The position numbers were made by a program, and so were the translations under genes. A DNA stretch of 64,000 nucleotides from an uncultured Poribacteria bacterium (GTDB lineage: Bacteria; Poribacteria; WGA-4E; WGA-3G): positions 1,536,001 through 1,600,000 of the forward strand of contig CATQHZ020000001.1 of assembly GCA_958296135.2 (NCBI GenBank), read 5' to 3'. Positions 2,992 through 58,286 of this stretch are shown in pieces. Position 1 is the stretch's first letter. The number at the start of each line of letters is the position of its first letter. The notes below the pieces were generated by a model. It did not search any database and was not told the DNA's origin. It worked only from the letters and a program-made list of their open reading frames with translations.

Positions 2992-5900
2992 TTAACTCTT
3001 CGCCTTTTTCAGGCGGGTTTCAACGAGGTTCCTAACCGCCTCGTAAACGCCATCGCGTTCGCCTTGCGTCAATTCTAAGATGTCAAAGATGACGTTGTCG
3101 ATTGCGATGCGCGCTGGTGAAGGCCGTAAAACGTCCCATTCTTCGGATGCGAGGAGGGATGCGTCTACCCCCCCCCACCTTCACATACATGAAGTTAGGA
3201 TTAACACATAGTAGATTCTTTAATTCGTAATTCGTGATCTCCAACACGCCGCCGCCTAGATTCGCTCTCCCTCCCAGATTCGCCATTAACTGAAAGAGCG
3301 TGGAATTGAGCGAGAAACAGAGGGGAATTCTCAAGCTGTCCGGCACAGAGATTTCTATGAAGCCGTTTAACACATAGCATCCGTCGCGAGCGTACAGCGT
3401 TCTTGATGTTGATGAACTGCGCCTCTGGAAGCTGAGATGTGAGAGCGAAGGGTGACGCAAATCGTACCAAATCCGTCTGGCTTGGATAGCCGTTCTTCGG
3501 TTAAAACGTTCTGACTCACCCCATTCAATGTATGCCAAGGCAGAAGTGCCTATCAATTGCTCTTTCGTTTTTGCGCATAGAAAGAGTTGATTCCGAAGTT
3601 CGTCCAGAGCTACCTCAATGCTTTTCACGTTTCTCGGACTGGCGATAATTGGGCGTAAAAACTCTGCCTCAATACCCCAGTGTGAAATTGTTTCCGGAGC
3701 CAGTATGAAAAAATCGTTTGCCCCGGTCGTAATTCCCATCCGAAGTTTGTCAACGACATCCTCCACGCGGACAAATTTATCTTGTGCTTTTTCCAAAAGA
3801 TGCCAATAGATGTCGGGTGAACGGAGATATTTTCCACCCCACCTGTCGCCTTTGTATCTCGCCTGTTTGTCCATTCCACTGGCTAGAAGTGCCTTCTGTG
3901 AAATGGGATGAACTCGGTGCTCCGGTGTACGAGTGCGCTCTGTTGCCGTTTCGATTTCGTAGAAGATGACAGCATCTAAGACTGCCTCAAACGGTTCGGT
4001 GAAGGTGCCGAATCGCGCGGTATGTTGTAAACCTGAGTCTTGGCTGTTATCTGTAACTGCGACCAGACAAATAACGGTGTTGACATCTGCCGAGGCGAAG
4101 GAACGACGCACCGAATTGTCTAAAACCATTTTGAGGTGGCACTGTCTGAGGCAGAACTCCTGCAAATCTGTGCCGTAGAGTGTATCTAACCACGCATTAG
4201 AGGTAATGGGGCAGAAGGGGCCCTTCGGATTTAGCAACGAGAGCCCATGAAAATAGAAGTAAACGTAGAGGTCGCTGTTGCCATCTAATTTGTGTGTGAC
4301 AGCAGCGGCCGGGTTTTCCTTCGTATCCTTCTCCGGTTGATACCCGAAGAATTCGGGGAACGCCTGATAGACAGAACGCGCCAACTTCGCTTTATACGCC
4401 TTCGTGTTAGCGGGTGTTACCTCGTATCGGGATAACGTCGGATCGGCGATCTTTTTCGTGGAAACATAAGGCGGGTTCTCAATTATGATGTCAAACCCAC
4501 CGTATTGATTGAAAATTTCCACGAAGGCGATATCCCACACAAACGGCGGCGCAGTGTTCGTTTTCAACGCACCGAGGGCCTGCTGGACCTGGGCGAGGTT
4601 CGCCTCGTGCCGTGCTAATTCCGCCTGCTTCTGCTGCGTCAGCGCGTCAAGCTGCGTTTCTTCCGGTCCGCCTATTTCTGAAATCATCAGTTGTTCGGCA
4701 GAGAGAGCCTTCAGCAAGTCCCGCGTTGTTTCGATTTGCCGCGGCAGTTGGGTTTCGTAAGCTGCCAAGATGTCTCGGAAGAGCGCGTTCTCGGCGCGTT
4801 GGACATCCGCTTTCTCCGCATATTTCCGCTCGCGCTCGTTGTGGTAAAACTTGAGTTTCTCGGCTTGCAGATTTGAGATGTTGCGCGAGATGGCACTCGG
4901 CACGCCACTGCCCAACGCGCGCGTCTGCGCGAGGTTCATCCCGCCGATGTCCTGCACCAGACTATCCCCGTGCCGAAGGTTAAACGAAAAATCAGGGAGC
5001 AGCGGTGCCTCGCGAATCTGCAGTTCTGCCTCGCGAATCTCCGCCTCAATGATGAGCGCGAGCCATAGCCGCAGCTCGGCGACTTTGCAGGCCCACGGCA
5101 TCACGTCCACGCCGTAGAGATTCTTCCCGATGATGGCCTTGCGGCGTTCAAAACGGGAGGGGACAGATGCGCCGAGGTGCCGCGCGGCGCGTTCACCCAG
5201 GTCATCGAGAATGTGGAGCATGCCGACGAGGAACGAACCGCTTCCACACGCCGGATCCAACACGGTGATGCGGGTGAGATGCGCGGCGATGGCTGCCCAC
5301 TGCTCGGCGAGTTGTGCATCGGCGGCTGCCTTCTCTGTCTCGTCAAACGTGAAGAGTGCCGCGTAAAGTTTATGCTTGTGTGCTTCACCGATGTGATTTG
5401 TGAGGTTATCCACGAGCGCGAGGCGGCACATCAAGTCGATTTCAATGCGCGGCGTGTAGAAGATGCCGGCATCGCCGCGTTCATCGGTTTCGGTAGAGAC
5501 ACTGACGAGACTCTCGTAGACTTTGCCGATCATCTCGGGGTCTACGGCGACTTCCTGTTCCAAGGGTGTATCCTCGGCGATGGTAAAATTATATCCCTCA
5601 AAGAAGGTGAATATCTCTAGCCAGAGGGTATCAGGAATGGTTGTCGCATACTCGGTATCCCATTCGTTTTCTCGGAACAACCCGCCGTTGAGATAGGGAG
5701 CGTGTTGCAGTGTGTCACGGATGTCGTGTGGGAAATAGCGATACCCGCCATGAAATCGCTTGTTAAACGCGGCAAAGAAGAGGACGTTGAGCCACTTGTC
5801 GACAAATTCTCCCGGTGTCGTGCCCGTCGGGTTTCGCTGTTCTTCGGTAGGAGAGCCCTCCCGGTGTCGATGGCGTTGATACGCTTCCCAGAACGTCCGG

Positions 5901-6637
5901 AGGAAGTCCGGATTGTCTCCCAACCACCGCTTTCGCTGGAGGAAGTAGAGGAAGAGACAGCGGCTGAGGAATTGTTGCGCGGCATCGTGCGCCCACTTTT
6001 TATCAGCGGTTTGCGTTTCCAATTCGGTGTGGAGGCGTTTGAAGACGCGCTGGTAGTCGGCGAAAAACTGCGCTGTCACTGCATCGACATCAAAGGCGGC
6101 CTCGTGTTGGTTGGAAATGTCCAGCGGTGTCAGGTGGTCGAGGTTTTCAAAGAGCCCATCGGTGCCGAGTGTTTCCAGATTGAGCATTGCGATGCGTTCG
6201 GCGGCGGTGCGGAGTCGTGCGTCGGGTGCGATAGTGATGCGCCGGTAGCGGTGGCGGGCCTTGCGTTTTTCGCGTGCCTCTCGAACGAGTGTGACGTTGA
6301 CGAAGTGCCAGTGGTCTTGCGCAGCATTGCTGAAAATGTAGAGCGCGTGCGAGAATCGCGTCTGCAGGTGCGCGATGAGTTGGCGTTCATCGGTTTTCCG
6401 AAGTTTTTCGGTGTTGAGGTGCGCGTAGAGGATGTGGAAATCGTTGTTGCTGCCGGCGGCGGCAAATCGGCGCGGTGGTTCAGCGAGGCAGTCGGCGAGA
6501 GAATCGGGCAGTTCGGCGATAGGCTCATCGATGCGGGTATAGTTGAGTTCTCGCCAGAAGAGTTCGCGCAGGGGTTCGAGGCCGCGGAGATTCTGTAATA
6601 GGTTTAAGATGCGTTCGATGTTTTCGGGTGTCGGCAT
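2992..6637 (-). CDS. Type IIG (Eco57I-like) restriction-modification enzyme, frameshifted near the 3' end at a G9 tract
   Basis: YLNGGLF, EMIGKVYESL, FYTP, DPACGSGSF and NPPY motifs; G8 at 3168-3176 would continue VDASLLASEEWDVL...YEAVRNLVETRLKKAKS to TAA at 2992. Confidence 0.85.
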
Positions 6638-6750
6638 TTTTGTTTTTCTCGAAGCGTTTGGTTAGGGCTTCTGGGTTTCAGTGGGTGTGACTGACCAGGC
6701 CGTCTTGACGCTTCTTTAAGGTTTTTCACATTATACAGAATAAGCGGATT

Positions 6751-9890: not shown

Positions 9891-10106
9891 GTGTATCCGG
9901 TAGGCGCGGTTTATAACCGCGCTCCTAGCAACAGACGCGCTTCCATAAAGAGTAAAAAAATAAATCAGGTTGTTTCGCGCTGGATACGGGCGGATATGAA
10001 CGACATCCGCCCTTACACTCCCCGGGCGCGCACATTTTGAAAAAATAACCCGCTCATTTTCTGAAACTTCATCAAAGCGCGTCTACCGCGCCTTGGAAAT
10101 GTCTGT

Positions 10107-12975: not shown

Positions 12976-13043
12976 AAAGTTTCTCCAATTCAAATAGGGA
13001 GCGCGGTTACAAACCGCGTCTATCGGGTGCGTCTCGCCAAAAG

Positions 13044-16951: not shown

Positions 16952-19900
16952 TTAGCGGACGATAGACACCTTGCCCATGCGTTGCTCCGTATCTGTCTCA
17001 AGCCGGTAGATATAAACGCCGCTGCTAATTCCCGCCGCGTGCCAAACTTTTTTGCCCGCGTCGAACGCTGTCGTAGCGAGGAAGGCGACGCGGTTGCCGT
17101 TGACATCATAGATGCCGATGCGGGTTGCTTCAGGTAGGTTAACAAACGTGACCTGGTTACACCGGGTAGGATTGGGGTAGACAATCGCGTCGGCGAGTGT
17201 CGGAGCGGCGATGACTACGGTTAACGTCCTCGCATCATCGGCGATGTAAGTGCCATGGATGTCAGAAATCTGGAAGGTTTCAATCTGATAACGGCCGCCT
17301 GCCTGAAAAGTGCCGGGAGGGAATGTTAGCACAACTCGCTGTTGCGTCCGGTCGAGAATGGCAGATTGCGGCGCGTAAGCAACGGTAGCATCCAGATTCT
17401 GCAGTTGATATCGTCCTGGATGCGTCGCGGATGTCCCCATCTGTTTGTCAAACTGCAACAGCAGTTGATTCGGTGGGGAATAGACAGCGGAAGTCAATTT
17501 CAGCGGCACAGTCTGCACAGCAGATACCGATTCTGTTTGCGCTGCCGACTTTCCATTCCGCTCAAAAACGGACAACACGCCATTACTGTTGAACAGCAAT
17601 TCATTCATGCCATCGCTGTCAACGTCAGCGACAATCGGATTAGCAGTGCTACTCGCCGGATAGTGCCAGACCGGGACGTAATCAGTTCCATCATATTGGA
17701 CGAGGTAGAAATTCGGCCACACGGCGATGCACAATTCATTTTTTCCATCGTTGTCTGCATCTGCAATGTTTAGTCCGTTGCCGCCGTTCCGTGCGTTTTG
17801 AATACGTTGGCTCCACACTGCGCGGTAGGTGTTACCGCCTGTTGTCTGTAAGGGCGGATTTCTATCTCCGTCCGTATGCGAGAAAATCGTGATGAGCCAG
17901 TGGTAACGCTCGGGGTCAGAATCGTCTGTCCATACCTTCGCGCCGACAGCGAATTCCGAACGTCCATCGCCATCCAAATCGCCAGCGGCAAAGAGTTGCG
18001 GGCGGCCCTCCGGGAGAGTGCCTCGCCATACTTGTTCATACCGGTTATTCCCGATTGCTTCGTAAGCAAAGAGTTCTCCATCCGTGTCGCCTGCGAGAAT
18101 CTCCATGCGTCCGTCCCCATCAAAATCGCCGGTTGCGAAGCTGGTGCCCATGTTATTTTCGCCTTCTGTCGGGTTTACAAGTGCTGCGATGTTGCGATAA
18201 CTGTTATCTCCGATGGCTTCATAGACAGCAATGGAAGCTGTCGTAGAATCGCGAGAGTAGATTTCGGGGATGCCATCGCTGTCCAGATCTGCAATTGTTC
18301 CACCCCACAGTTGCGGTGCGTCCCAGGTGCGCACCGCTGGAAATTCACCTTCGGCGGGTTGCTCTAGCAAAAACGTTCCAGTTAAGGCGTGTCCTAAAAT
18401 CTCAACGAGCCCGTCTCCATCAGTGTCTGCAGAGTCCCAAGGGCGCATGGGTTCTGATAAGGTGAAGACTTTCCGGTAGGTTCCGTCGGCATCAGCCTCA
18501 AAGATGTGCGGGGAGCTCCAACCTCTCGCTTCTGTCTCCACAGCGATAAGTTCTCTCTTGCCGTTGGCGTTCATATCCGCGGCGGCGACAATCGCGTGCA
18601 AACCGTGCTCCGCCGATGCCGCTTGTGCGAGATGCGAAGTCGGAATACGCGCATCAAGTACCTCAATGGGATATAGATTTCCCGCGTTGTCATCAATTGT
18701 TTGGAGTCCAGAACGATTTTTCGCTACCAGACGATAGGCGTATGACACGGGTGGCAAGCCTAATTCAGAGAGGTAGAGGAGATGACGGTGGTTTATGGAA
18801 GCGGTGCGCGCGCGTCGCGAGCGAGGGACAAGCCCGCGCACTACGGTATTTTTATTATCCGGGAAAATCTCCACTTCTCCGATAGTCAGCGCATCCGTTT
18901 GCCACGTGATGACAGACTCAATCCTATCGCCTGCAAACCATGCCCCTGCATCATGTTTGGAAATAGTGGGTGCTGTGTGGCTCACCTCCACGACGATTTT
19001 TTCAGTGACAGTTCTTCGGGTTTCAGAAGGCGCGCGTTGGCGGTTATAGCGTTTCAATTTCGGGTTTTCACTGCCCGGTCTTCTCTCTGCAGGGATAACG
19101 CGCAAACGCAACGTGTAGGTGCCTTCTGCTAAGCCGGAGACATCCCATTCGTGCAGGAGCGCGTTAAACTTCGGTTCGGTTTGCGGGGGGAGAATGGGGC
19201 CCCATACCTCCGGCGTTTCGCCGCGTCCGAAGTCTAGCCGATATTCGGCGAAGCCGTTTCCGCCGGCACTACCGTAGATTTCTACGATAGGCATTCGATA
19301 GGTGACAGTGAGCTGCGCGATGAGGCCCGTGGCGGCGGTAAGCGCGAGGTGTGCATCCGGCAAACCTGCACCGACGAGGCCCCCCTGCGGATAAAGTGAG
19401 CTCGCAGTGAGCATCTGCCGAATCTCGGTGTTGCTGCACGTTGGATTGGCAGCGAGCATCAACGCCGCCACGCCGGAGATGTGCGCCGCCGCCATGGAAG
19501 TTCCCGATTTTGTGCTATAGTTTTCCGCTAATTCAGTGCTGAGGATGCTGTCCCCAGGCGCGGCAATGTCGACGGTGGCACCGAAGTTAGAATCTCCTGC
19601 CAACCGGCCGTTTTCCTGCAACCAAGCGACAGAGATGACATTTTCAAGCGCGGCGGGATACCACGGTTCGGCGGTTCCAGAGTTGCCTGCGGCTGCAATG
19701 AGCACACACCCGCGCTGATAGGCGTATGCCACGGCATCCTGCACAATGAAAACCTTGGCCGGGTCGCCCAAGCTCAGGTTAATGATGTGCGCGCCGTTAT
19801 CTGCGGCGTAGACGATGGCGGCGGCGACATCGTCACTCTGCAGAAACGCACCCGCATCCGAAATAAACCCGGCTCTGAGCGGCATCAGGCGACAGTTCCA

Positions 19901-20692
19901 TGCGATACCGGCAATGCCGATACCGTTATTCGGCTCAGCGGCGATGATGCCGGCTACATGCGTGCCGTGTCCGCTTTCGTCGTCGGGTGCGTTATCGCGT
20001 TCTGTCCAATCGCCGCGTCCCGGCATTGTCGGGGCATCGCTGAAGTCCCAGCCGTTGATGTCGTCAACGTAGCCGTTCCGGTCATCGTCAATCCCATTAC
20101 CGGCAATTTCATTGGAATTCTGCCAAAGTTGCGAACGGAGCTCTGGGTGCAGTCTGTCTATCCCGCTATCCACAACAGCGACGATGACTTCAGGCGTTCC
20201 TCGTTCAACTGTCCACGCCTTGGGGAGATTGAGAGCTCGGAGATTCCACTGCTCTTCATAACGCGGATCGGTAGGCACAACCTGTTCACCCACATCCGCG
20301 CAGAATCTGTTGAGTGTGTTAAACTGAACTGCTTCAACCCACGGATAGTTTTCGTATTGCCCGCGCAGTTGTTCCAACCGATTGTTTTGTAAGGGCGGAT
20401 GTCTATCTCCGCCCGTCCCTGCACGCTGAAATCGAATCAGATAACTGCGTCGGAGGAGCGGATGTCTTCCGGCAGGCGTGTTTGGGGAAAAAATAGGGGA
20501 GACCGAGGTTGCGCCGGCCTCGCGGAGTTTGTCCACGTCAGTAGTCTCGCGGAGCCGCACAAGCAATTCTGTCGGTGCATAATGCGCCGCTACGTCAGAA
20601 GAACTAGAACTATCAACTGTTAACTCTGTCCATCCGTTTTGTGAAAAAAGAAAAATGAAGATTATTAAGAGCGTTACGCGAGTTTTTTTCAT
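16952..20692 (-). CDS. Secreted S8 subtilisin-like protease with FG-GAP/VCBS repeats and C-terminal YPNP Ig-like sorting domain
   Basis: VAVVDSG, HGTHVAG, GTSMAA triad; repeated DxDGDG motifs; VYPNP...SGVYIY tail. Confidence 0.9.
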   Translation of the reverse strand: MKKTRVTLLIIFIFLFSQNGWTELTVDSSSSSDVAAHYAPTELLVRLRETTDVDKLREAGATSVSPIFSPNTPAGRHPLLRRSYLIRFQRAGTGGDRHPPLQNNRLEQLRGQYENYPWVEAVQFNTLNRFCADVGEQVVPTDPRYEEQWNLRALNLPKAWTVERGTPEVIVAVVDSGIDRLHPELRSQLWQNSNEIAGNGIDDDRNGYVDDINGWDFSDAPTMPGRGDWTERDNAPDDESGHGTHVAGIIAAEPNNGIGIAGIAWNCRLMPLRAGFISDAGAFLQSDDVAAAIVYAADNGAHIINLSLGDPAKVFIVQDAVAYAYQRGCVLIAAAGNSGTAEPWYPAALENVISVAWLQENGRLAGDSNFGATVDIAAPGDSILSTELAENYSTKSGTSMAAAHISGVAALMLAANPTCSNTEIRQMLTASSLYPQGGLVGAGLPDAHLALTAATGLIAQLTVTYRMPIVEIYGSAGGNGFAEYRLDFGRGETPEVWGPILPPQTEPKFNALLHEWDVSGLAEGTYTLRLRVIPAERRPGSENPKLKRYNRQRAPSETRRTVTEKIVVEVSHTAPTISKHDAGAWFAGDRIESVITWQTDALTIGEVEIFPDNKNTVVRGLVPRSRRARTASINHRHLLYLSELGLPPVSYAYRLVAKNRSGLQTIDDNAGNLYPIEVLDARIPTSHLAQAASAEHGLHAIVAAADMNANGKRELIAVETEARGWSSPHIFEADADGTYRKVFTLSEPMRPWDSADTDGDGLVEILGHALTGTFLLEQPAEGEFPAVRTWDAPQLWGGTIADLDSDGIPEIYSRDSTTASIAVYEAIGDNSYRNIAALVNPTEGENNMGTSFATGDFDGDGRMEILAGDTDGELFAYEAIGNNRYEQVWRGTLPEGRPQLFAAGDLDGDGRSEFAVGAKVWTDDSDPERYHWLITIFSHTDGDRNPPLQTTGGNTYRAVWSQRIQNARNGGNGLNIADADNDGKNELCIAVWPNFYLVQYDGTDYVPVWHYPASSTANPIVADVDSDGMNELLFNSNGVLSVFERNGKSAAQTESVSAVQTVPLKLTSAVYSPPNQLLLQFDKQMGTSATHPGRYQLQNLDATVAYAPQSAILDRTQQRVVLTFPPGTFQAGGRYQIETFQISDIHGTYIADDARTLTVVIAAPTLADAIVYPNPTRCNQVTFVNLPEATRIGIYDVNGNRVAFLATTAFDAGKKVWHAAGISSGVYIYRLETDTEQRMGKVSIVR

Positions 20693-20719
20693 GAATGCCA
20701 TGGAAATCCTAAAAAAAAG

Positions 20720-32119: not shown

Positions 32120-32405
32120 ACCGTAGCGCGAGGGAAAACCCGGCGATCGCGAATCGCCGAGGGTTCCCCTCGCGATCTCTCGATCGACACGAAAACGTCG
32201 CCCCCCGGGCTCGGCTGTTTTCTGATGCGTTCAAGCACGGCGAGGCACAGGACCTCGCCCTACGGGAAAAGGGACGCGTGCGGCACGGCGAGGCACAGGA
32301 CCTCGCCCTACGGGAAAAGGGGCGCGTGCGGCATGGCGGGGAAAGTCCCTCGCCCTATGGGCTGCGGGGCCGCTTTGCTTCCCCCCCCTCGCCCTACGGG
32401 AAAAG
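32120..32405. repeat. REP array including 48-nt tandem units
   Basis: GCACGGCGAGGCACAGGACCTCGCCCTACGGGAAAAGGG repeated. Confidence 0.85.
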
Positions 32406-32475
32406 GGATAATCCTGAGAATCCTGATTCAGATTTCCCTTTCCTAATTCTGCAAATTCTGTTATCATTAACCTCC

Positions 32476-33846
32476 ATGAAAACCTTCACGATGATTTTTC
32501 TCTGCTGTGTCGCGCTGCTACTCACAGGGTGTGGGATATCCACCACAAAACCAAGTGTAAGAACGGACTTCCATGTCCGCCCGCATGCAAACCTACGGGC
32601 TGAAATCGATGGCGTTTTGCAAGATGCACTCTTCACGTCGGCGCACATCGCGATAAAGGTTGTCACTGTCAAAACGGGAGAGGTGCTTTATGCGAAAAAC
32701 GTCCGTAAATTACACCACCCCGCCTCAACGATGAAACTCATCACGGCGGCGGCGGCTTTGGCGAAACTGGGGGCTGCCTATCGGTTTGAAACGACGCTTT
32801 ATGCCGATGCAATCGCCGATGGGCGCGTGGCAGGGAACGTCTACCTCAAAGGCAAGGCAGACCCGGTTCTCCAAGAAGGCGAGTTGGCGGAAATGGTTAA
32901 TGCTTTACGCGATGCTGGTGTTCAATCGGTCTCCGGCGGCATCGTCGTTGATGAGACGTATCTTGACGCTGTCCGGGAAGGCCCAGGATGGATGTGGGAC
33001 GATAAGCCGTTAGGGTTGAGCACGCTAGCTATCCGAGGCAGCGCAGTTAAGGATAGAGCCCTCGCCTGCGGCACTATGCTGAAGGAGATGCTGCAGCAAG
33101 AAGGCATCGTTGTCAATGGCGAGGTATCACACGGGACTGTGCCATCAGGTGCCATCACTATTGTCGCGCATCTATCGCCGCCGCTGGCGGAGATCCTCAA
33201 GTTGATGAACAAGCCGAGTGATAACACTATCGCCGAGTTGATTTTCAAAACCCTCGGCGCGGAGGTGAAGAGTGAACCGGGGACGTGGCAAAAGGGGAGT
33301 CAGGTGGTTGGCGAATTTTTGGAGGAAATAGTTCTCCTGAGTCGCGACCGGGGGTTTATCCTAAATCGAGACCGGGAGGTCTCTCCTACCGAAGAACATC
33401 AAGACCGGGGGGTTCTCCTGAGTCAAGACCGGGAGGTCTCTCCTACCGAAGAACATCAAGACCGGGGGGCACGCCTACAGTTTCGGATTGTTGATGGCTC
33501 GGGGCTCTCTCGCTACAACCTTATCACGGCGGAGTTGCTGACAGACTTGCTCGTCGCTGTCTACAACGATTTTGAACTGATGCCGGAGTATGTGGCCTCA
33601 CTGCCGATTGCCGGCGTTGACGGGACGTTGGAGAATCGGATGAAGGGGATGCGCGCCGAAAAGGTGCTCCGCGCGAAGACAGGCACCTTAAGCGGTGTCT
33701 CCACGCTGGCGGGCTATACCGTCACGGCGGACGGCGAGGTGTTGGCGTTCTGCATCCTCATCAGTCACTATGTTGGCCCGGCGGCACCCGCGCGGCGCGT
33801 CCAAGATGAAATCGGGAATTGTTTGACGCGGTGGAGCCGGGACTGA
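32476..33846 (+). CDS. dacB: D-Ala-D-Ala carboxypeptidase/endopeptidase PBP4 (S13) lipoprotein with in-frame repeat insertion
   Basis: Lipobox LTGC, PASTMK, SDN, DGSGLSR, AKTGT. Confidence 0.9.
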   Translation: MKTFTMIFLCCVALLLTGCGISTTKPSVRTDFHVRPHANLRAEIDGVLQDALFTSAHIAIKVVTVKTGEVLYAKNVRKLHHPASTMKLITAAAALAKLGAAYRFETTLYADAIADGRVAGNVYLKGKADPVLQEGELAEMVNALRDAGVQSVSGGIVVDETYLDAVREGPGWMWDDKPLGLSTLAIRGSAVKDRALACGTMLKEMLQQEGIVVNGEVSHGTVPSGAITIVAHLSPPLAEILKLMNKPSDNTIAELIFKTLGAEVKSEPGTWQKGSQVVGEFLEEIVLLSRDRGFILNRDREVSPTEEHQDRGVLLSQDREVSPTEEHQDRGARLQFRIVDGSGLSRYNLITAELLTDLLVAVYNDFELMPEYVASLPIAGVDGTLENRMKGMRAEKVLRAKTGTLSGVSTLAGYTVTADGEVLAFCILISHYVGPAAPARRVQDEIGNCLTRWSRD

Positions 33847-36254: not shown

Positions 36255-37262
36255 CTAACGTCCCGTTGAAATATCTTTGACCCACTCGCGATTTTCCTGA
36301 TACCATTGGACAAGTTCCATTATGCCTTGGCGAAACCTGACTTGCGGCCGCCATCCTAAAAGCCGTTCTGCTTTTCGGATGTCTGCCCAAGTCGCGCGGA
36401 CATCCGCCGGGTGAAACGGACGATGCTCAAGATTCGCCTTTTTACCGACGAGCTCCTCTATGAGACGAATTGTGTCAATCAGCACAATCGGACTATCCGA
36501 GCCGAGGTTGATAATCTCGTGACCGATCGGTTTTAACCCGGCGATGACCCCGCGCGCAATATCTTCGACGTACGTGTAATCGCGCGACGATTGCTTCCCG
36601 TCGCCATAAACGGTAACCGGCTCTCCCTCGCTGATCCACTTCACAAATCGGAACGCGCTCATATCTGGCCGCCCTGCAGGCCCGTAGACGGTAAAGAAGC
36701 GAAAAATCGTCGTGTCAATGTCGTAGAGATGATGGTAACTGTGGCAAAGTGCCTCCGCGCCTTTTTTGGAGGCAGCATAAGGCGAAAGCGGTCCGTCCGT
36801 GTTCGCATCCTCGCTGAACGGAAGAGCGTTGTTCGCACCGTAGAGGCTGGAAGTGGAAGCCAACACAAATTTTTTGATACCAAACTCACGGCACAATTCC
36901 AGCAGATTCAGTGTGCCGGTTACGTTCGTATCGACGTAGACCCACGGGTTCTCCACGGATTGCCGCACGCCGGCGCGTGCCGCGAGGTTAATCACCGCGT
37001 CAAAATCCACCCGTTTGAATATGTCGTTCAGCGCGTCTCTGGCGCAGATGTCCAGCCGATGAAATTGGAAGATGCCCCGTTCCTGTAGCGCGTGATCTCC
37101 CGATCTCGCAGTCTGCAGTTCATTGAGCCGCCACGTTTTGACCGTGGTATCGTAAGCGTCGTTGAGATTATCCACGCCGATGACGGTATGCCCATCGGCG
37201 AGCAAAAACTCGGTCACTTTCCAACCGATGAAGCCCGCACAGCCAGTGACAAGATATTTCAT
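36255..37262 (-). CDS. NAD-dependent nucleotide-sugar epimerase (UDP-glucuronate 4-epimerase-like)
   Basis: TGCAGFIG, LAARAGVR, YAASK, RFFTVYGPAGRPDM. Confidence 0.92.
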   Translation of the reverse strand: MKYLVTGCAGFIGWKVTEFLLADGHTVIGVDNLNDAYDTTVKTWRLNELQTARSGDHALQERGIFQFHRLDICARDALNDIFKRVDFDAVINLAARAGVRQSVENPWVYVDTNVTGTLNLLELCREFGIKKFVLASTSSLYGANNALPFSEDANTDGPLSPYAASKKGAEALCHSYHHLYDIDTTIFRFFTVYGPAGRPDMSAFRFVKWISEGEPVTVYGDGKQSSRDYTYVEDIARGVIAGLKPIGHEIINLGSDSPIVLIDTIRLIEELVGKKANLEHRPFHPADVRATWADIRKAERLLGWRPQVRFRQGIMELVQWYQENREWVKDISTGR

Positions 37263-39943: not shown

Positions 39944-40236
39944 TCCCGCTCGCACCGCGCAGTAATTCACAACAGGCACGAATTTTGGAACGTTTCCAAT
40001 TTACGGGAGGTCCTGCACCGCTGAAAGGCAACCGCAACCTCCCGCCGTAACCCCAGACACGTTGTCTGGTAACGCAACGCGATTAATTGTCTGAATCCGC
40101 GATTCAGACAACCGAACACCCGGGCAAGCACACGAGCCTGCCCACAACTACAACAACGTAAGGGCGGATGTCTCTATCCGCCCTCTTCAGTAGGAGGGAC
40201 CTCCTGGTCCCGATACACAACAAGGAGAAATCCATC

Positions 40237-41844
40237 ATGAAAACATTAACGCTTTTTACCTTAACGCTGCTGTTAACCGCGGCGATGGCACTGCCACCCG
40301 CCACCGCCCAAGAATACGTCCATACCGACACCTTGGAAGGGCATACGCAATTTGTCTATGGGCTAGCCTTCAAGGGTAACGGGACGCTTATCAGTGGGAG
40401 TAATGACGAAACCCTCCGCGCCTGGAATGTTACCACCGGACAGCAACGCTGGAGCAAGGATGTCGGCAATCAGGTCCTCGCCGTTGCCCTCCCCTCGCAT
40501 GACCCAGACTTCATCGCCTATGGTGGACTTACGAATTATAACATTCGGATGCGCTATAGTGACGATGGCGACTGGCGCGGCGATGTGGCGGGGCATACAG
40601 GCGCTGTCTTTAGCCTCGCCTTCAAGCCGAACAGTTATCTGCTGGCGAGTGGGAGTAAGGACGACACCATCCGCATCTGGGACGTGGGTGACGTAAACAA
40701 CCTGCGGCATGTGCGCACGCTGCGCGGCCACACGGGTAATGTCATCTCGGTGGCGTGGAGCCCTGATGGGAGCACGCTGGCGAGTGCAAGTGATGATGGC
40801 ACGGTACGGTTGTGGAATCCGAACAACGGCATCAACTTCGCCGTGCTGCGGGGGCATACGGAGACTGTCAACAGCGTGGCGTGGAGTCCGGACGGTAGCA
40901 TCCTTGCGAGTGGGAGTCATGACACCACCATCCGCCTCTGGAATCCGGACACGCACGGCACCCGGCGCGTGCTGCGGGGACACACCGCGGTTGTCTATTC
41001 CTTAGCGTTTCATCCAAACGGACAGACGCTGGCGAGTGGGAGTGATGACCGCACCATCCGTTTGTGGAACCCAAACACCGGCACCCACAAAGCCACCCTC
41101 ACGGGATACGCTGATGCAATCAATGGGTTAGCCTTCTCGCCGAACGGACAGACTCTCGCCGGTCGGGGGGCTAAGCAAACAGACATCAATTTGTGGCGGT
41201 TGCTGTCGGTGGATGTCACGGGGAATGGCAGTGTCACCCGGGCGGATATCCGCGCCGTCGCAGATAACTACGGCAAAACCGTCGCCGGTGGTGCAAACCG
41301 CCGTGCAGATGTCAACAACGATGGGAAGGTTGACATTGACGATCTCATCTTGGTGGCAAAGGCAGTGGATGCGGCAGCGGCTGCGCCGGCAATTGCAAAG
41401 GGAGACATCGAGACCGGGAGGGCTCTCCTACGGGCGGCGGATGTCAAGCAGTGGATTCGTGATGCGAAGGATGCAAACGCAGACCCGGCGGGCATTGCTG
41501 CCTTGGAGCGGCTGTTGGCAACGCTCAGTAGGAGGGACCTACCGGTCCCGAAAAAGACAGTCCTGCTTGCCAACTATCCGAATCCGTTTAACCCGGAAAC
41601 GTGGATACCGTATCAATTGGCAGAGGCAGCGGAGGTTACCGTCACGATCCACGCGTCAGATGGGAAACTGGTGCGCACGCTGGCGTTAGGGCAGTTGCCA
41701 GCGGGTGTGTATCAGACGCAGGCCCGCGCCGCGTATTGGGATGGCCGTAATGCGCAAGGAGAACCTGTTGCGAGCGGCGTGTATTTCTACACGCTGCAGG
41801 CCGGTGATTTCATCGCAACGAAGAAGATGGTGATAAGGAAATAG
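40237..41844 (+). CDS. Secreted WD40 propeller + dockerin + FlgD-Ig/T9SS-like C-terminal domain
   Basis: GH..WSPDG..ASGS.D.TIRLW repeats, DVNNDGKVDIDDL, NYPNPFNPETWIPY...WDG.N..GE.VASGVYFY. Confidence 0.9.
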   Translation: MKTLTLFTLTLLLTAAMALPPATAQEYVHTDTLEGHTQFVYGLAFKGNGTLISGSNDETLRAWNVTTGQQRWSKDVGNQVLAVALPSHDPDFIAYGGLTNYNIRMRYSDDGDWRGDVAGHTGAVFSLAFKPNSYLLASGSKDDTIRIWDVGDVNNLRHVRTLRGHTGNVISVAWSPDGSTLASASDDGTVRLWNPNNGINFAVLRGHTETVNSVAWSPDGSILASGSHDTTIRLWNPDTHGTRRVLRGHTAVVYSLAFHPNGQTLASGSDDRTIRLWNPNTGTHKATLTGYADAINGLAFSPNGQTLAGRGAKQTDINLWRLLSVDVTGNGSVTRADIRAVADNYGKTVAGGANRRADVNNDGKVDIDDLILVAKAVDAAAAAPAIAKGDIETGRALLRAADVKQWIRDAKDANADPAGIAALERLLATLSRRDLPVPKKTVLLANYPNPFNPETWIPYQLAEAAEVTVTIHASDGKLVRTLALGQLPAGVYQTQARAAYWDGRNAQGEPVASGVYFYTLQAGDFIATKKMVIRK

Positions 41845-41849
41845 GAAAA

Positions 41850-42530
41850 CGCGCCGCGGCCCGTAGGGCGCTGTCTTGTGCCTCGCCAGGCCGCGCGCGT
41901 CCCTTTTCCCGTAGGGCGCTGTCCTGTGCCTCGCCATGCAGCGATCGCATCAGAAAACGGCAGAAGCCCGGGGCCCCGCGACGGTTTTCGTAGCGGTCGG
42001 GAGATCGCGAGGGGAACCCTCGGCGATTCGCGATCGCCGGGCCCTCGCGCTACGGTAACAGCGGCTGTCCGCACCGTAGGGCGAGGTCCTGTGCCTCGCC
42101 ATGCTTGAGCGCATCAGAAAGCGTTCGCGGCCGTTGGGCTGCGGGCGTTTTTCCTATGGGTCGAGAGATCGCGGCGGACAGGCCGCCGCGCTACGGTGCA
42201 AGTGGCGTTTTTCGTGTCGTTGAAAACTCGCGGCGTGACGGCCCCCGCGCTACGGTGGTGAGACGCAAATCGGCCCCGCAGCCCGTAGGGCGAGGGCCTG
42301 TCCCTCGCCATGCTTGAGCGCATCAGAAAGCGTTCGCGGCCGTTGGGCTGCGGGCGTTTTTCCTATGGGTCGAGAGATCGCGGCGGACAGGCCGCCGCGC
42401 TACGGTGCAAGTGGCGTTTTTCGTAGCGGTCGGGGGATCGCGAGGGACAGGCCCTCGCGCTACGGTGAAAGGGCCGTTTTTCGTGTCGTTGAAAACTCGC
42501 GGCGTGACGGCCCCCGCGCTACGGTGCAAG
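41850..42530. repeat. Large composite REP array (BIME-like) with a ~209-nt internal duplication
   Basis: CCGTAGGGCGAGG..CCTCGCCATGCTTGAGCGCATCAGAAAGC unit at ~42075 and ~42284; many CGCGCTACGG copies. Confidence 0.9.
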
Positions 42531-42557
42531 TGACCGTAGAAAGAAATTTCTTCGCCG

Positions 42558-46709: not shown

Positions 46710-48002
46710 TCATTTTGGATCAGGTATCATTTCAAATTCGCGATAGAGCGAGAGCAACCCATCGGCGGTATTGTCATTGAAGAGGCTCCGCGCGTAGGGT
46801 TCATAAGGCGCGTACTGCTCCTTAAAATAGTAGACGATGGATTCCTGTTTTGGTTCAACCTGATGTTTATCAATTGCTTCATATAAAGCGCGATAGGGTG
46901 GCCAGTGGCGTAATTGTTCGTGGAAGATGAGCTCTGCATCTGCGCCTGCATCGGCGTAAATCTTGCCTAAAGGCGTGAGCGCGTAGGTAACTCGCCTCCC
47001 TACCGGCTGTTTTTCAACCAGGCCGAGGATAGAGAGGTTATCTAACGCCTTGCGCACTCCGGTATCTCCTGTTTTCCAATCGCGTTCCTCCAACCACCTG
47101 CGAAGGATGCGGCGCGTCCGGTTTGGACAGGCGTTGACCGCGGCCGCCGTAATCTTCATCGCACTATAGACGCGGGCGGAATAGCCTAACAAAGTATCTT
47201 CCACCTGCCATGCCTCCCACAGGCTGAGTTCTGATTGCCGGTCGGCGATGTAGCGCGCTTCCTGCGTCTCTTGCAGGAACCGGAAATGCCCTGCGCCGAA
47301 TTGCGTCTGCGCAAGTCGGAGCCGCGGCAAACGGCGGAGCCACTTCTCCAATTCATTAGGAAAACAGATAAATTCGGGAAACCCCTCAAGCGTTTCAAAT
47401 TGGGGCTGTGAATCAAGTTGGAGGCGTGACTGATACTTCCCGGTGCCGCCGATGATGCAATTCCCTTCTATTCCAAAGGCATCTAACAGCACGGAGGCAT
47501 ATTTCTCACCGGGTGCGATTCGCGATAAAACGTGTGGACGTAGCGCGCGCCAATTGATGAGGAGAATCTCCAGTGACGGTTCCTGCCGTTGCCATTCGTG
47601 AACGCTTGCGTCAAACCCATTGAGAGAGACGCAGACGATGCCCCTGCACGCCAGGTCGTGGGCGGCTTGCAAGCGGCGTTCAATATGTAAATCCGAGAGA
47701 GTTGCAGCGCGTTTCTCGAAGAATTTCGCCTCCAATAGATAGCGGTTCTCGCCATCCCACAAAATCCCATCGCATTGATAGAGGGTGCCGGAATCGCCAT
47801 ACAGACAACTCGACCATTCCTTAACCTCCAAACTCCGCACGGAGTTGTAGTAGCTGAGGATGAGGTGTTCAAAGGCGATGCCGCGCTTTGATGGCGAAGA
47901 TGGCAACGCAATTTTCGGCACGTCTTCGCCTCTTAAGACGAAGGGGGCCGCATCCTCTTTCAGAGCGGTAAAGGCTGTGGGGTGTGCGTAGATATATGCC
48001 AT
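46710..48002 (-). CDS. Putative PD-(D/E)XK restriction-type endonuclease with C-terminal winged helix
   Basis: GIAFEHL..QCDG..LLEAK; LSILGLVEK..YALTPLG. Confidence 0.6.
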   Translation of the reverse strand: MAYIYAHPTAFTALKEDAAPFVLRGEDVPKIALPSSPSKRGIAFEHLILSYYNSVRSLEVKEWSSCLYGDSGTLYQCDGILWDGENRYLLEAKFFEKRAATLSDLHIERRLQAAHDLACRGIVCVSLNGFDASVHEWQRQEPSLEILLINWRALRPHVLSRIAPGEKYASVLLDAFGIEGNCIIGGTGKYQSRLQLDSQPQFETLEGFPEFICFPNELEKWLRRLPRLRLAQTQFGAGHFRFLQETQEARYIADRQSELSLWEAWQVEDTLLGYSARVYSAMKITAAAVNACPNRTRRILRRWLEERDWKTGDTGVRKALDNLSILGLVEKQPVGRRVTYALTPLGKIYADAGADAELIFHEQLRHWPPYRALYEAIDKHQVEPKQESIVYYFKEQYAPYEPYARSLFNDNTADGLLSLYREFEMIPDPK

Positions 48003-48155
48003 CGTTGATTTCCAAGGTTCCGCGCTGTAGGAGGGACCTCCTGGTCCCGATACCGCATGCATCGAGACAGGGAGGGCTCTCCTACTTCATCTGAGCCCGA
48101 ACAAGTCAAGACCGGGCGAACTCCACCTACAAGTTACGGACGGTTTTGCGTCGTC

Positions 48156-52319: not shown

Positions 52320-52520
52320 GAGGGCGGGGCCTGTCCCCGGCGTGCACCGTAGTCCGGCGAGGGGAACCCTCGGCGATTCGTGATCGCCGGGCCCTCGCCC
52401 TACGTTTCTGTGGGATGGTTACTGAAGGCCCCGGCTATAATTGTAGGAGAGCCCTCCCGGTCGCGATTCCTCCCGGTAGGAGAGCCCTCCCGGTCTTGAT
52501 ATGGAACCGAGGTCTCCTAT
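52320..52520. repeat. REP cluster (families A and B)
   Basis: GTAGGAGAGCCCTCCCGGTC twice; CCCTCGCCCTAC. Confidence 0.8.
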
Positions 52521-55405: not shown

Positions 55406-55413
55406 TCAAGCTG

Positions 55414-56213: not shown

Positions 56214-57212
56214 TTATTCTTCATTTTCCTCTTCGGGTTGCCAATCGTTGGCATTGAGGTTCTGGATACGCGGCCTGAACACCCTATCAAAAAGTTCAAG
56301 TTTCTCGGCGAGCCAAGCGTGCTGATTTGGCCAGTCAGCTTCGTCGGTTGGGTCTATGTTATGTCTGTTTAAGACTACAGCATTAGACTCCTCTATCCAC
56401 TCAAGTTGTACGTCTTCACACAACTCGCTGATTTCGTCCTCAATTTCCGCTTGATTTACCATCAAAAGGTTGAAATGTGCTGAGGTGTTTGGCCCGAACA
56501 TGTCAAGGCGGACGACTAACCGATTCCCTAACGTGCTCATTAAGGCCTTCAACCTAAACCCAGCTCTGCCGATAGGAAAAAACACGAAGCCTACCGAAAC
56601 AGGATTGGGAGCATTGATCTGGCGATTTGTCTGATTCACGTGTTCGCCGAATGCAGTCCAGAATCTTTGCCGGAGTAGTGGAGGTCCAGATAACTCTTCG
56701 CTCCCGGCTCGTTGCACGCTCTGACTCACAGCACGGCTCCAATTATTGGGTATGGAAACGATATTGAATTTCGGGGCGGCGCGCGAATCTCCGATTCTCC
56801 ACAGTTCAATTTCCACGCCGAAGTACCGATAGCGTTCATCCGTAATCGCGTTCTGTCTGTCAAGAACTGCGCGGTGCTCATCCCTGAAATTCTTTGCAAT
56901 CCAGACGACGGTAGCTGCATCTAACCCTGTCATATACTCCAAGAGTCGCCCAAGGTGATTAGAGTCCGTTTCTTCTAACTGATTCTCTATTATCACCTGT
57001 GAGTCGTCCTCCGTACTACGGCACAGAAGATCGACAATGCCGCCAAATCCGAGTCTTACCTCACGTCCTTCAAGCTCAAGTTCCATGTCCAGCGTTTTCG
57101 CAAGGATAGATAGGTTTTCTTCCTCAGCCAACCACGGTGTAAAGTCTGTCGCTTCGTTAGGCCAGACCTCTCGTAATTCAACTCGCTCAAGGCGACCAAG
57201 TTCGTTATACAT
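56214..57212 (-). CDS. DUF4268-domain protein with N-terminal nuclease-like domain, paralog 1
   Basis: WPNEATDFTPWL, VDLL..IIENQL, C-terminal WPNQHAWLAE. Confidence 0.8.
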   Translation of the reverse strand: MYNELGRLERVELREVWPNEATDFTPWLAEEENLSILAKTLDMELELEGREVRLGFGGIVDLLCRSTEDDSQVIIENQLEETDSNHLGRLLEYMTGLDAATVVWIAKNFRDEHRAVLDRQNAITDERYRYFGVEIELWRIGDSRAAPKFNIVSIPNNWSRAVSQSVQRAGSEELSGPPLLRQRFWTAFGEHVNQTNRQINAPNPVSVGFVFFPIGRAGFRLKALMSTLGNRLVVRLDMFGPNTSAHFNLLMVNQAEIEDEISELCEDVQLEWIEESNAVVLNRHNIDPTDEADWPNQHAWLAEKLELFDRVFRPRIQNLNANDWQPEEENEE

Positions 57213-57308
57213 TAGGTGTTAGGTTCTCCTTTGGAATATCGTAAAAGCGATCTGATAACCGCTACATCTATTATAGCATAAATCGCGAATTTTTTGCTAA
57301 TTATTTTT

Positions 57309-58286
57309 CTAGAAAACTGTCCCTTTAACCGTAGGGCGAGGGCCTGAGACGGTTTCTTCACAAATGCGCGGGACGAAGACTGCTGTGAACCGTTCAAGCA
57401 TCTCGGCGAGCCAAGCGTGCTGATTTTGCCACTCCGTTTCGTCCGTTGGATCGGTGTCGTCCTTGCGCAAGGTGACGCGGCACGGATTTTGTCCAAACGA
57501 TTCTGTCCATTCCAGTGCCGCGCCGATTTCGCGTTCGATCTCCTCTCGCTGCGCTATCAGTTGATGGAAGTGCGCAGCGGCAGTCGGCCCGGAAATATAG
57601 AGCCGAACGCCGATGTGTCGCTTTTTCACCTCCCGCATCGCCGATAATTTGAAACCGGGGATGCCGAGGAGGAAGATGAGATAGGAACGTGGCGGCATCT
57701 TCATTGGCTTGAGAGGACTTTTTGTTTCGGTGAGATATGCGCGGAAATCGTGCCAGAATTTTTCACGTTGTTGCTGCGGCGTGGATGGGACGATGAAATG
57801 TGCATCGGTTGGCATCGCGGGGCCGCTCCAGTCTTCTGGTGCAGAGACGACGGTAAATTCTGGCATCGGGAGTGACTCTCCACGCTGCCACACGGCGATA
57901 ACGACACCGAAGAATTGGAAGCGTTCCGGTGTCATCTCATTGAGCCAGTTAAGAGCAGCGAGGTGTTCATCCGTGAATTCTGTCGAGATCCAGACGATGG
58001 TGGCCGCTTCCAATCCGGCGGTGTATGTTAGGATTTGGCCGAGGTGCGTGTGGTCTGTCGCTTCCAACTGGTTTTCGATGAGCACACGTGTGTTGTCAGC
58101 GCGGTTGCGGCACAGGATGTCGGCCCGAAATTGTCCGACGTTTTTCTCCTGTGCCTCAAATTGGAGTTCTATGTCCAATGCCTCGGCGAGGATGGCGAGG
58201 TTTTCCGGCTTGGCGAGCCAGGGGGTGAAGTCTTTTGCTTCGTCGGGCCAGATATCGCGTGGATTTAGGCGGATAGGTTCTAGCAT
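57309..58286 (-). CDS. DUF4268-domain protein, paralog 2
   Basis: WPDEAKDFTPWL, ADIL..LIENQLEATDHTHLGQ, WQNQHAWLAE. Confidence 0.8.
   Translation of the reverse strand: MLEPIRLNPRDIWPDEAKDFTPWLAKPENLAILAEALDIELQFEAQEKNVGQFRADILCRNRADNTRVLIENQLEATDHTHLGQILTYTAGLEAATIVWISTEFTDEHLAALNWLNEMTPERFQFFGVVIAVWQRGESLPMPEFTVVSAPEDWSGPAMPTDAHFIVPSTPQQQREKFWHDFRAYLTETKSPLKPMKMPPRSYLIFLLGIPGFKLSAMREVKKRHIGVRLYISGPTAAAHFHQLIAQREEIEREIGAALEWTESFGQNPCRVTLRKDDTDPTDETEWQNQHAWLAEMLERFTAVFVPRICEETVSGPRPTVKGTVF

What the first reader, a model, noticed from the sequence alone, without database searches (positions are those of the whole stretch)
5839..57350. REP-like palindromes repeatedly inserted in frame inside protein-coding genes
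Seen: intergenic repeat families recur within ORFs without breaking frame. Type IIG R-M 5839-5870 (HRHREGSPTEE) is nearly identical to the dacB unit (RDREVSPTEE). Subtilase 20389-20416 (GGDRHPPLQ) and 17848-17874 (DGDRNPPLQ) match intergenic 40158-40183 and 9986-10016; subtilase 18821-18846 (TVVRGLVPRS) matches another family. Also WD40 protein 41406-41431 and 41528-41551, epimerase 37084-37110 (TARSGDHALQ) and the DUF4268 C-terminus ~57330-57350. Established: coding insertions of this kind are known for Rickettsia palindromic elements, while GTAG REPs are typically extragenic. Inference: an active repeat system that adds new peptide loops to proteins.
Basis: partly seen in the sequence, partly recalled or inferred. 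Interest (0 to 1): 0.8.

Follow-up and report, generated by a model that had tools for sequence, protein, structure and literature searches.

The report
Palindromic repeats inserted in-frame in genes
Short GTAG-headed palindromic repeats of a Poribacteria genome sit inside intact genes and are read as extra disordered loops or linkers, which is real and well shown here but has already been described in other bacteria.

Summary
The window comes from a Candidatus Poribacteria genome and is full of GTAG/GTAA-headed hairpin repeats (REPs) of at least five families. Family A has 12 copies where shuffles give 0.

Homolog alignments show that the repeat-encoded peptide is an insertion in four proteins:
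- Type IIG R-M enzyme: absent in 37 of 39 homologs.
- Subtilase: three sites.
- PBP4/DacB: 44 aa, absent in 19 of 19 homologs, and a low-confidence coil in an otherwise confident AlphaFold model.
- Epimerase: an 11-aa gap against PDB 5u4q.

Three qualifications apply:
- The two WD40 sites are old. They lie in a linker and are shared by most of 60 homologs.
- The DUF4268 case is a 3'-end overlap.
- Several repeats that look N-terminal lie upstream of the true start codon.

In a related genome, at least 15 of 498 family-A copies are internal to Pfam-verified genes, including ClpB and DapF.

No RAYT transposase was found, so "active" is not shown. Intragenic GTAG REPs were already catalogued by Di Nocera et al. 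(2013). This is a new member of a known kind. The inserts are most likely tolerated passengers that survived selection in loops and linkers.

The parts
5819..5875 (+). Family-A REP (core 5847-5870, GTAG on the + strand) inside the Type IIG R-M gene 3083-6637(-). It encodes aa 255-273 (RHRHREGSPTEEQ...).
   Evidence: 1 mismatch to consensus. (34 nt at 94% to the dacB unit); the insert is absent in 37 of 39 homologs, present in same-contig paralog P0005, and present as a short remnant in P0014. Coordinates.
20384..20419 (+). Family-B REP (GTAAGGGCGGAT...CCGCCC) inside the subtilase gene 16952-20725(-), aa 103-114, upstream of the S8 domain.
   Evidence: hairpin -8.2 kcal/mol, z -4.8; 12-aa gap in 24 of 30 homologs and 7-aa gap in P0123-P0125. 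The closest ortholog P0122 has a diverged equal-length version.
18815..18847 (-). Family-C REP (GTAG on the - strand) inside the subtilase gene, aa 627-634 (TVVRGLVP).
   Evidence: about 7 extra residues versus the four closest orthologs. The site is a length-variable loop in more distant homologs. Hairpin not better than shuffles.
17840..17872 (+). Family-B REP inside the subtilase gene, aa 952-962 (DGDRNPPLQTT), between the FG-GAP repeats and the T9SS sorting domain.
   Evidence: 6- to 11-aa gap in all 30 homologs (11 aa in 26 of them).
33340..33471 (-). Cluster of about 5 tandem family-A units (two of them good copies, 33366-33389 and 33423-33446) inside dacB/PBP4 (true CDS 32476-33846 +). 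It encodes a 44-aa insert.
   Evidence: query 412-464 versus 1w5d 336-344; absent in 19 of 19 homologs, including an 82%-identical fragment; pLDDT 45-64 and no secondary structure, in a model with mean pLDDT 89.7.
37080..37112 (+). GTAG-headed imperfect palindrome inside the epimerase/dehydratase gene 36255-37262(-). It encodes aa 51-61 (TARSGDHALQE). It has no family copy in the data examined.
   Evidence: 11-aa gap against 5u4q and 10-aa gap against 6zl6.: -5.6 kcal/mol, z -2.1; no similar copy found.
41401..41433 (-). Family-A REP inside the WD40/dockerin-like/T9SS-tail protein (true CDS about 40237-41844 +). It lies in the linker and encodes GDIETGRALLR.
   Evidence: 0 mismatches; most of 60 homologs carry a form 2 aa shorter (DIETGS-LQ); 7 of 120 carry the full form; paralogous modules lack it.
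41527..41550 (+). Family-A REP in the same linker, encoding SRRDLPVP.
   Evidence: 1 mismatch; conserved in 56 of 60 homologs, and 4 have LTRVEAP-P; 69 of 120 match the peptide pattern; 5- to 6-aa gap in paralogous modules of a related genome.
57312..57362 (+). Family-C REP overlapping the 3' end of the DUF4268 gene 57309-58286(-). It supplies the last ~17 codons.
   Evidence: the C-terminal tail differs from the neighbouring paralog after the shared ...PRI; the Pfam domain ends at aa 307 of 325.
40158..40213 (+). Intergenic reference copies: family B (40158-40184) and family A (40190-40213), just upstream of the true WD40 start.
   Evidence: The signal peptide starts at ORF codon 24.
32123..32410 (.). 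Intergenic array of family-C REPs that keeps a spurious 126-codon ORF extension open upstream of dacB.
41860..42526 (.). Large intergenic array of family-C REPs.
48027..48085 (.). Inverted pair of family-A REPs, probably upstream of the start of ORF 46710-48062(-).
52443..52499 (+). Intergenic direct tandem of family-A REPs with a 33-nt period.

Best explanation
The window carries several families of GTAG-tagged repetitive palindromic elements (REPs), each 24-33 nt with a short hairpin next to a GTAG or GTAA head. They are common across Candidatus Poribacteria genomes.

Most copies are intergenic. A minority landed inside coding regions and survived for three reasons. The added length is a multiple of three. 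The element has no stop codon in five of six frames. The site is a surface loop or an inter-domain linker that tolerates 7-44 extra hydrophilic residues rich in Pro, Gly, Ser, Arg, Asp and Glu.

After insertion, copies can amplify in tandem (dacB), decay (subtilase site 1) or be inherited through gene-family expansion (WD40 linker).

Shown: family membership, insertion relative to homologs, intact hosts, and a disordered-loop location for dacB. Inferred: mobilisation in trans by a RAYT-type HUH tyrosine transposase, and near-neutrality of the inserts.
For: Source and abundance:
- Poribacteria origin (source names).
- Copy numbers far above chance. GTAG-plus-hairpin architecture.
- Two compensated stem variants exist in family A: GAGACC/GGTCTC and GGGACC/GGTCCC.

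Insertions relative to homologs:
- R-M: 37 of 39 homologs lack it.
- Subtilase: three sites against 30 homologs.
- dacB: 19 of 19 homologs lack it, and the PDB comparison agrees.
- Epimerase: 11-aa gap against a solved, closely matching homolog, 5u4q.

Hosts are intact:
- dacB keeps the invariant catalytic columns S84, K87, S248, K401 and G403.
- The epimerase aligns nearly end to end with solved enzymes.

Location:
- In the dacB model the insert has pLDDT 45-64 with no secondary structure, while the flanks are at 95 or above.
- The WD40 sites lie between the dockerin-like segment and the T9SS tail.

Generality in a related genome (OZ251518.1):
- At least 15 of 498 family-A copies lie inside 9 ORFs with Pfam domains on both sides or spanning the site.
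- ClpB has a ~31-aa insert against 6dju. DapF has a ~24-aa insert against 5ha4.

Frames: 455 of 510 copies are open in 5 of 6 frames.

Depletion in genes: about 9 of roughly 55 REP units in the window are internal, although long ORFs cover about 90% of it. This fits purifying selection.
Against: - No RAYT-like gene was found. tblastn with E. coli RayT against the window and all fetched loci gave nothing better than E = 2.5. A motif prefilter gave 2 ORFs, neither RAYT-sized (594 and 366 aa), and neither was examined further.
- Family A hairpins are weak. Several variants fold no better than shuffles.
- Most family-A copies are single or in direct tandem, not the inverted pairs expected of REPINs.
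- The epimerase element has no family copy in the data examined.
- The WD40 segments are conserved across a large family. That could reflect function rather than neutrality.
- Neutrality and translation of the inserts were not tested.
Confidence: 0.8

Rival explanations
1. Exaptation. The repeat-encoded peptides are selected as functional linkers or surface loops, for example in secreted T9SS/dockerin proteins, rather than being neutral passengers.
For: - The SRRDLPVP and DIETG... segments are conserved in most of 60 WD40 homologs at 76-82% identity. 69 of 120 match the SRRDLPVP-type pattern.
- Three different linker positions of the same module carry family-A peptides in different paralogs.
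- A subtilase homolog, P0129, has a similar repeat peptide twice at the same loop.
Against: - Host proteins are functionally unrelated.
- Inserts are absent from most orthologs.
- The dacB insert is modelled as disordered.
- Conservation within a recently expanded paralog family need not mean function.
- No selection test was run.
Confidence: 0.15
2. The repeats spread without a dedicated transposase, for example by replication slippage, template switching or gene conversion between copies. Intragenic copies then arise by these routes.
For: - No RAYT was found.
- Direct tandem arrays dominate, with 109 direct neighbour pairs against 54 inverted and a modal 33-nt period.
- Tandem expansion is seen in dacB and in WD40 homolog P0243.
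Against: - Slippage explains local amplification but not first arrival at unrelated sites in six genes.
- The GTAG head is the hallmark of RAYT-associated REPs (PMC3733652, passages read).
- Only part of one relative's genome and 64 kb of the source genome were searched.
Confidence: 0.2
3. The intragenic repeats are not translated. They would be removed or bypassed at the RNA or ribosome level, so they add no peptide.
For: None from the tools. It is considered only because the elements are hairpins.
Against: - All measured inserts are multiples of three and free of stops.
- The one stop-containing frame is never the one used among the verified internal copies.
- This count is partly circular, because only ORF-spanning copies were examined.
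Confidence: 0.03
4. Artefact. Assembly errors or wrong gene calls make extragenic repeats look intragenic.
For: This is true for some cases. REPs at 32123-32410, 40158-40213, 33843-33872, 48027-48085 and 54032-55 lie in ORF extensions upstream of the real or probable starts. REP arrays also create spurious ORFs.
Against: - The core sites have homologous protein sequence on both sides.
- The same inserts recur in independent assemblies: P0005, P0122 and the WD40 family.
Confidence: 0.02

Closest known systems
GTAG-tagged REP superfamily, including its intragenic members (Di Nocera, De Gregorio, Rocco 2013, BMC Genomics 14:522; PMC3733652; abstract and passages read)
   Same: - GTAG or degenerate head, short stem-loop, and several families per genome.
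- Clusters and dimers, mostly intergenic.
- Some copies lie entirely within ORFs of known proteins. Single units or groups encode about 10-30 aa or more.
- 3' overlaps occur, and N-terminal cases are often misannotation.
- Repair and helicase genes are among the hosts. Here these are a UvrD-like helicase and an SNF2 helicase in the relative.
   Different: - The phylum: Poribacteria was not among those the passages I read name. The paper's supplementary lists were not opened.
- The stem and loop sequences were not compared with the paper's 24 families.
- No RAYT was found here.
- The local density of internal copies is high, at about 9 units in 6 genes within 64 kb.
Rickettsia palindromic elements (RPE; Ogata et al. 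2000, recalled and not read; described in PMC3733652 passages)
   Same: Palindromic repeats inserted in frame in protein-coding genes, giving extra peptide segments in otherwise intact proteins.
   Different: - RPE-4/6 carry a CGTC tag and RPE-1 is much longer (passages). The elements here are GTAG-tagged units of 24-33 nt.
- The lineage is different.
- No transposase is linked to the CGTC type.
REPIN-RAYT systems (Bertels and Rainey; PMC3116915 and PMC3337134, seen only in search listings)
   Same: High-copy REPs, a GTAG head, persistence across related genomes, and some inverted pairs (for example 48027-48085).
   Different: In the relative, 222 of 498 family-A copies are single. Direct tandems (109 pairs) outnumber inverted pairs (54). 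No RAYT was detected.
MITEs inserted in genes, for example the Coxiella burnetii MITEs (PMC5896051; title and abstract start only)
   Same: Small non-autonomous repeats that can alter protein sequences.
   Different: MITEs are longer, with terminal inverted repeats and usually target duplications. The units here are single short hairpins.

Membership tests
GTAG-tagged REP superfamily | Unpaired GTAG (or degenerate) tetranucleotide at one end of the unit | tested here: met
   Families A, C, D and E begin with GTAG. Family B begins with GTAA.
GTAG-tagged REP superfamily | Short stem-loop (stem 5-13 bp, loop 2-20 nt) next to the tag | tested here: met
   - Families B, C, D and E have 8-11 bp perfect stems. 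Energies run from -8 to -14 kcal/mol.
- Family A has only a 6-bp stem with two compensated variants. Its GAGAGC variants fold no better than shuffles.
GTAG-tagged REP superfamily | High copy number, mostly intergenic, often clustered | tested here: met
   - Window: 12 family-A, 5 family-B and about 27-31 family-C copies in 64 kb.
- 498 distinct copies were found in the fetched loci, of which at least 15 are internal.
GTAG-tagged REP superfamily | Association with a RAYT (HUH/Y1 transposase) gene | tested here: inconclusive
   No hit better than E = 2.5 with E. coli RayT in the window plus about 1.7 Mb of fetched loci, which overlap one another. The motif prefilter gave 2 ORFs, neither RAYT-sized (594 and 366 aa), and neither was examined further. 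The rest of the source genome could not be searched.
REPIN (inverted REP doublet as the mobile unit) | Two REPs in inverted orientation forming one long hairpin as the predominant form | tested here: not met
   Family A in the relative has 222 of 498 copies single, 109 direct neighbour pairs, and 42 tail-to-tail plus 12 head-to-head pairs.
Rickettsia palindromic elements | In-frame insertion in protein-coding genes with the host protein kept intact | tested here: met
Rickettsia palindromic elements | RPE sequence families (CGTC tag for RPE-4/6; long RPE-1 units) | tested here: not met
   Units here are GTAG/GTAA-tagged and 24-33 nt long. The CGTC statement comes from PMC3733652 passages.
MITE | Terminal inverted repeats flanking a 100-400 bp body, with target-site duplication | tested here: not met
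   Units are single short hairpins. Target duplications could not be examined because no empty-site DNA was available.

The most novel reading that the evidence does not exclude
In Poribacteria, GTAG REP families act as a lineage-wide source of disordered linkers and loops. The same repeat-encoded peptides have been fixed and conserved in a large expanded family of secreted dockerin/T9SS proteins. They recur independently at the same variable loops of orthologs. The modal unit of 33 nt, with five stop-free frames, would then reflect selection on the element itself for tolerance inside genes.
Probability: 0.15. Interest if true: 0.6.

Novelty: new member of a known kind. Interest (0 to 1): 0.35.

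Why it matters
- It extends documented intragenic GTAG REPs to a candidate phylum of sponge-associated bacteria.
- It gives clean, alignment-backed examples in well-understood enzymes (PBP4, an SDR epimerase, and ClpB and DapF in a relative). These could serve as natural tests of how proteins tolerate loop insertions.
- It also has a practical side. REP arrays in these genomes keep long spurious ORFs open and extend real ORFs upstream. Automated annotation of Poribacteria MAGs is therefore likely to mis-call starts and to create false proteins.

Tried and rejected
- RAYT search: tblastn with E. coli RayT and a recalled HUH/Tyr motif prefilter found nothing usable.
- AlphaFold model of the R-M enzyme: mean pLDDT 58.9, too poor to place the insert.
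- PDB sequence search for the R-M enzyme: only weak methylase matches, none covering the insert.
- The source genome itself was not among the genome-contig hits by name, so no genome-wide census of the source was possible. A relative was used instead.
- No orthologs of the R-M, dacB or epimerase genes lay in the fetched loci, so empty sites could not be compared at the DNA level.
- HIP1 (GCGATCGC) enrichment: 5 copies against 3.4 expected, so rejected.
- Rfam: only tRNA-Gln.
- An argument that 'five of six frames open' is itself special was rejected. It is expected for a GC-rich 24-mer.
- Literature: Poribacteria together with 'palindromic' gave only papers whose titles concern CRISPR or sponge microbiomes. 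In the search combining Poribacteria with REP, RAYT and MITE terms, none of the 10 papers listed (of 70 holding at least 2 terms) contained 'Poribacteria'.
Full report
**What the window is**

The 64-kb window has 52-59% G+C and carries ordinary bacterial genes (Pfam). These include:
- a Type IIG R-M enzyme (3083-6637, - strand);
- a 1257-aa subtilase with FG-GAP repeats and a T9SS sorting tail (16952-20725, -);
- a PBP4/DacB-type carboxypeptidase (ORF 32098-33846, +);
- an SDR epimerase/dehydratase (36255-37262, -);
- two WD40 proteins;
- two DUF4268 genes next to a type I-like R-M system.

Homologs that carry a source name are called Candidatus Poribacteria. The window's own proteins come from a contig of 5,011,778 bp.

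**The repeats**

Repeat finding and a hairpin scan show many short units that start with GTAG or GTAA, followed directly by a stem-loop. I grouped them into five families.

| Family | Form | Copies in window | Source |
|---|---|---|---|
| A | GTAGGAGRGNCCTCCYGGTCNCGA | 12 at up to 3 mismatches; none in 100 shuffles | |
| B | GTAAGGGCGGAT...ATCCGCCC | 5 heads; 0.23 expected | |
| C | GTAG[GC]GCGAGGG-cctgt-CCCTCGC[CG] | 31 pattern hits, about 27 convincing, mostly in arrays at 28.5-29.6 kb, 32.1-32.4 kb and 41.9-42.5 kb | |
| D | (3 copies) | 3 | |
| E | (pattern hits) | 11 pattern hits, about 6 with the hairpin | |

- Stems of families B to E are strong, at -8 to -14 kcal/mol.
- Family A has only a 6-bp stem. 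Two variants are mutually compensated: GAGACC/GGTCTC and GGGACC/GGTCCC. A third variant, GAGAGC, folds no better than shuffles.
- This is the architecture of GTAG-tagged REPs.

**Checking the observation**

Every coordinate in the finding holds what was described.

The epimerase element is the exception. It has a GTAG head and an imperfect hairpin (z -2.1). It has no similar copy in the window or in the related loci.

**Are they insertions?**

- **Epimerase.** The alignment to PDB 5u4q (E-value 1.7e-82) has a gap of exactly 11 residues opposite TARSGDHALQE. The alignment to 6zl6 has a 10-residue gap there.
- **DacB.**
  - Query residues 412-464 face residues 336-344 of 1w5d.
  - In an alignment with 19 representatives, all 19 lack a 44-aa block. 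These include a 66% ortholog and an 82%-identical fragment.
  - The DNA is about five tandem family-A units in one orientation.
  - The real start is the lipoprotein-like MKTFTMIF at 32476. The REP array at 32123-32410 is therefore intergenic, although it sits in an open frame.
- **R-M enzyme.** 37 of 39 aligned homologs lack the insert. A paralog on the same contig (P0005, 80% identity) has it, and P0014 has a 5-aa remnant.
- **Subtilase** (30 homologs).
  - Site 1 shows a 12-aa gap in 24 homologs and a 7-aa gap in three close orthologs. The closest ortholog, P0122, has a diverged equal-length version, so this insert predates that split.
  - Site 3 shows a 6- to 11-aa gap in all 30.
  - Site 2 has about 7 extra residues versus the four closest orthologs, in a loop whose length varies among distant homologs. 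One homolog, P0129, carries a different repeat-like peptide twice at this same loop.
- **WD40 protein.**
  - The true start is at ORF codon 24 (a signal peptide), so the REPs at 40158-40213 are upstream.
  - The two internal copies lie between a dockerin-like segment and the T9SS tail.
  - They are not specific to this genome. 56 of 60 aligned homologs (76-82% identity) carry SRRDLPVP-like sequence, and 4 carry a peptide one residue shorter.
  - Most homologs carry a form of the other segment that is 2 aa shorter. 7 of 120 carry the full form.
  - Only paralogous modules at 50-60% identity in a related genome lack them, with 5- to 6-aa gaps. Two of those modules carry a family-A peptide at a third linker position.
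- **DUF4268.** The repeat overlaps the 3' end and supplies the last ~17 codons after the point where the neighbouring paralog diverges.

**Are the hosts intact, and where do the inserts sit?**

- DacB keeps the invariant catalytic columns.
- An AlphaFold model built on 60 sequences has mean pLDDT 89.7. The insert region has block means of 45-64 and no secondary structure, while its flanks are at 95 or above. It is modelled as a disordered loop.
- The R-M model was too poor to use, with mean pLDDT 58.9. No solved homolog covers that region.

**Beyond the window**

- Nearly all stretches lie in one Poribacteria chromosome, OZ251518.1.
- A few lie in three other Poribacteria assemblies.
- Single hits lie in two MAGs with other labels.

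In the fetched DNA I found 498 distinct family-A copies.
- 455 of 510 copies, window included, have no stop in five of six frames.
- 118 copies have 50 or more open codons on both sides.
- I sent 20 of the longer ORFs, holding 34 copies, to Pfam.
- Nine ORFs holding 15 copies have domains on both sides of, or spanning, the repeat: DapF, two PhyH-HEAT proteins, a P-type ATPase, an SNF2 helicase, ClpB, a UvrD-RNaseT helicase, a GHL10 hydrolase and a DNA methylase.
- The figure of 15 of 498 is a lower bound, because shorter ORFs were not tested.

PDB alignments confirm a ~31-aa insert in ClpB (query 529-566 against 6dju 521-527). They also confirm a ~24-aa insert in DapF.

Family-A copies in that genome are arranged as follows:
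- 222 single copies;
- 109 direct neighbour pairs, with a modal gap of 9 nt, which gives a 33-nt period;
- 54 inverted neighbour pairs.

**Mechanism**

The best reading has four parts.
- These are REP-type elements that spread through the genome.
- Copies that fall in genes are mostly purged. About 9 of roughly 55 units in the window are internal, although long ORFs cover about 90% of it.
- The survivors keep the frame, avoid the single stop-containing frame, and sit in loops or linkers.
- Later events are visible: tandem growth (dacB, P0243), decay (P0122), and inheritance through family expansion (WD40).

Mobilisation by a RAYT is inferred from the GTAG head only. E. coli RayT found nothing in the window or the loci. 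A motif prefilter gave 2 ORFs, neither RAYT-sized (594 and 366 aa), and neither was examined further. Activity, translation and neutrality remain untested.

**Comparison with what is known**

Di Nocera et al. 2013 (PMC3733652; abstract and passages read) define GTAG and CGTC REP superfamilies in more than 80 species. They report:
- REPs entirely within ORFs of known proteins, most numerous for GTAG in Opitutus terrae;
- inserts often as dimers or groups encoding 20-30 aa or more;
- 3' overlaps, and N-terminal cases that are probably misannotation;
- a suggestion that inserts lie in flexible linkers or loops.

They identify the intragenic Rickettsia RPE-4/6 as CGTC REPs. The present case matches this picture feature by feature. 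What is new is the phylum, the particular families, and the alignment and model evidence.

Two searches listed no paper linking Poribacteria with REPs. The supplementary tables of the 2013 paper were not opened.

**Verdict**

The finding is a new member of a known kind, of moderate interest.

Noticed in passing
window 22802-23066: A 265-nt element bounded by GTAG...CTAC. Each arm holds two AT-richer 10-bp hairpins, two of them with the same GCTTTCG loop, around a ~106-nt centre. It lies between a TPP enzyme gene and an IF-2B-family gene. It looks like a composite REP or MITE-like element of another family.
   Followed up: partly
window 32098-32475, 37838-38272, 28433-28957, 29112-29747, 41787-42074, 42314-42607: REP arrays keep long frames open. 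This creates spurious ORFs of 95-211 codons and a 126-codon false extension of dacB, which is an annotation hazard for these genomes.
   Followed up: partly
window 38943-39154: Six to seven tandem copies of a 27-nt unit inside ORF 38774-39943 (no Pfam match), which would encode a 9-aa repeat.
   Followed up: no
window 27879-28178 and 28650-28949: A 771-nt tandem duplication at 95% identity. Each copy holds an 11-bp perfect palindrome with a 1-nt loop (28039-28061 and 28810-28832), inside ORFs without a Pfam match.
   Followed up: no
loci of OZ251518.1; window 52443-52499: Direct tandem family-A copies have a modal period of 33 nt, a multiple of three. A whole unit therefore keeps the reading frame. 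This may be coincidence.
   Followed up: partly
protein P0129 (subtilase homolog), residues ~605-630: Another Poribacteria subtilase carries RDSEIAPT twice at the same variable loop as window site 18824-18847. This suggests an independent repeat insertion at that loop.
   Followed up: partly
window 56214-62506 and 3083-6637: Two DUF4268 genes sit next to an HsdS-like gene and a fused HsdR-N/methylase gene. A Type IIG enzyme in the window has an 80% paralog elsewhere on the same contig.
   Followed up: no
window 11224-14669: Two tandem SBP_bac_5 solute-binding paralogs (73-81% DNA identity). The first has an added dockerin-type segment.
   Followed up: no
L028 and L070: Single exact family-A pattern matches in MAGs labelled 'uncultured delta proteobacterium' and 'uncultured bacterium'. 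L070 also encodes a 42% subtilase homolog.
   Followed up: no
window 1163-1234 (-): tRNA-Gln (UUG), with family-D REPs nearby at 1093-1122.
   Followed up: no
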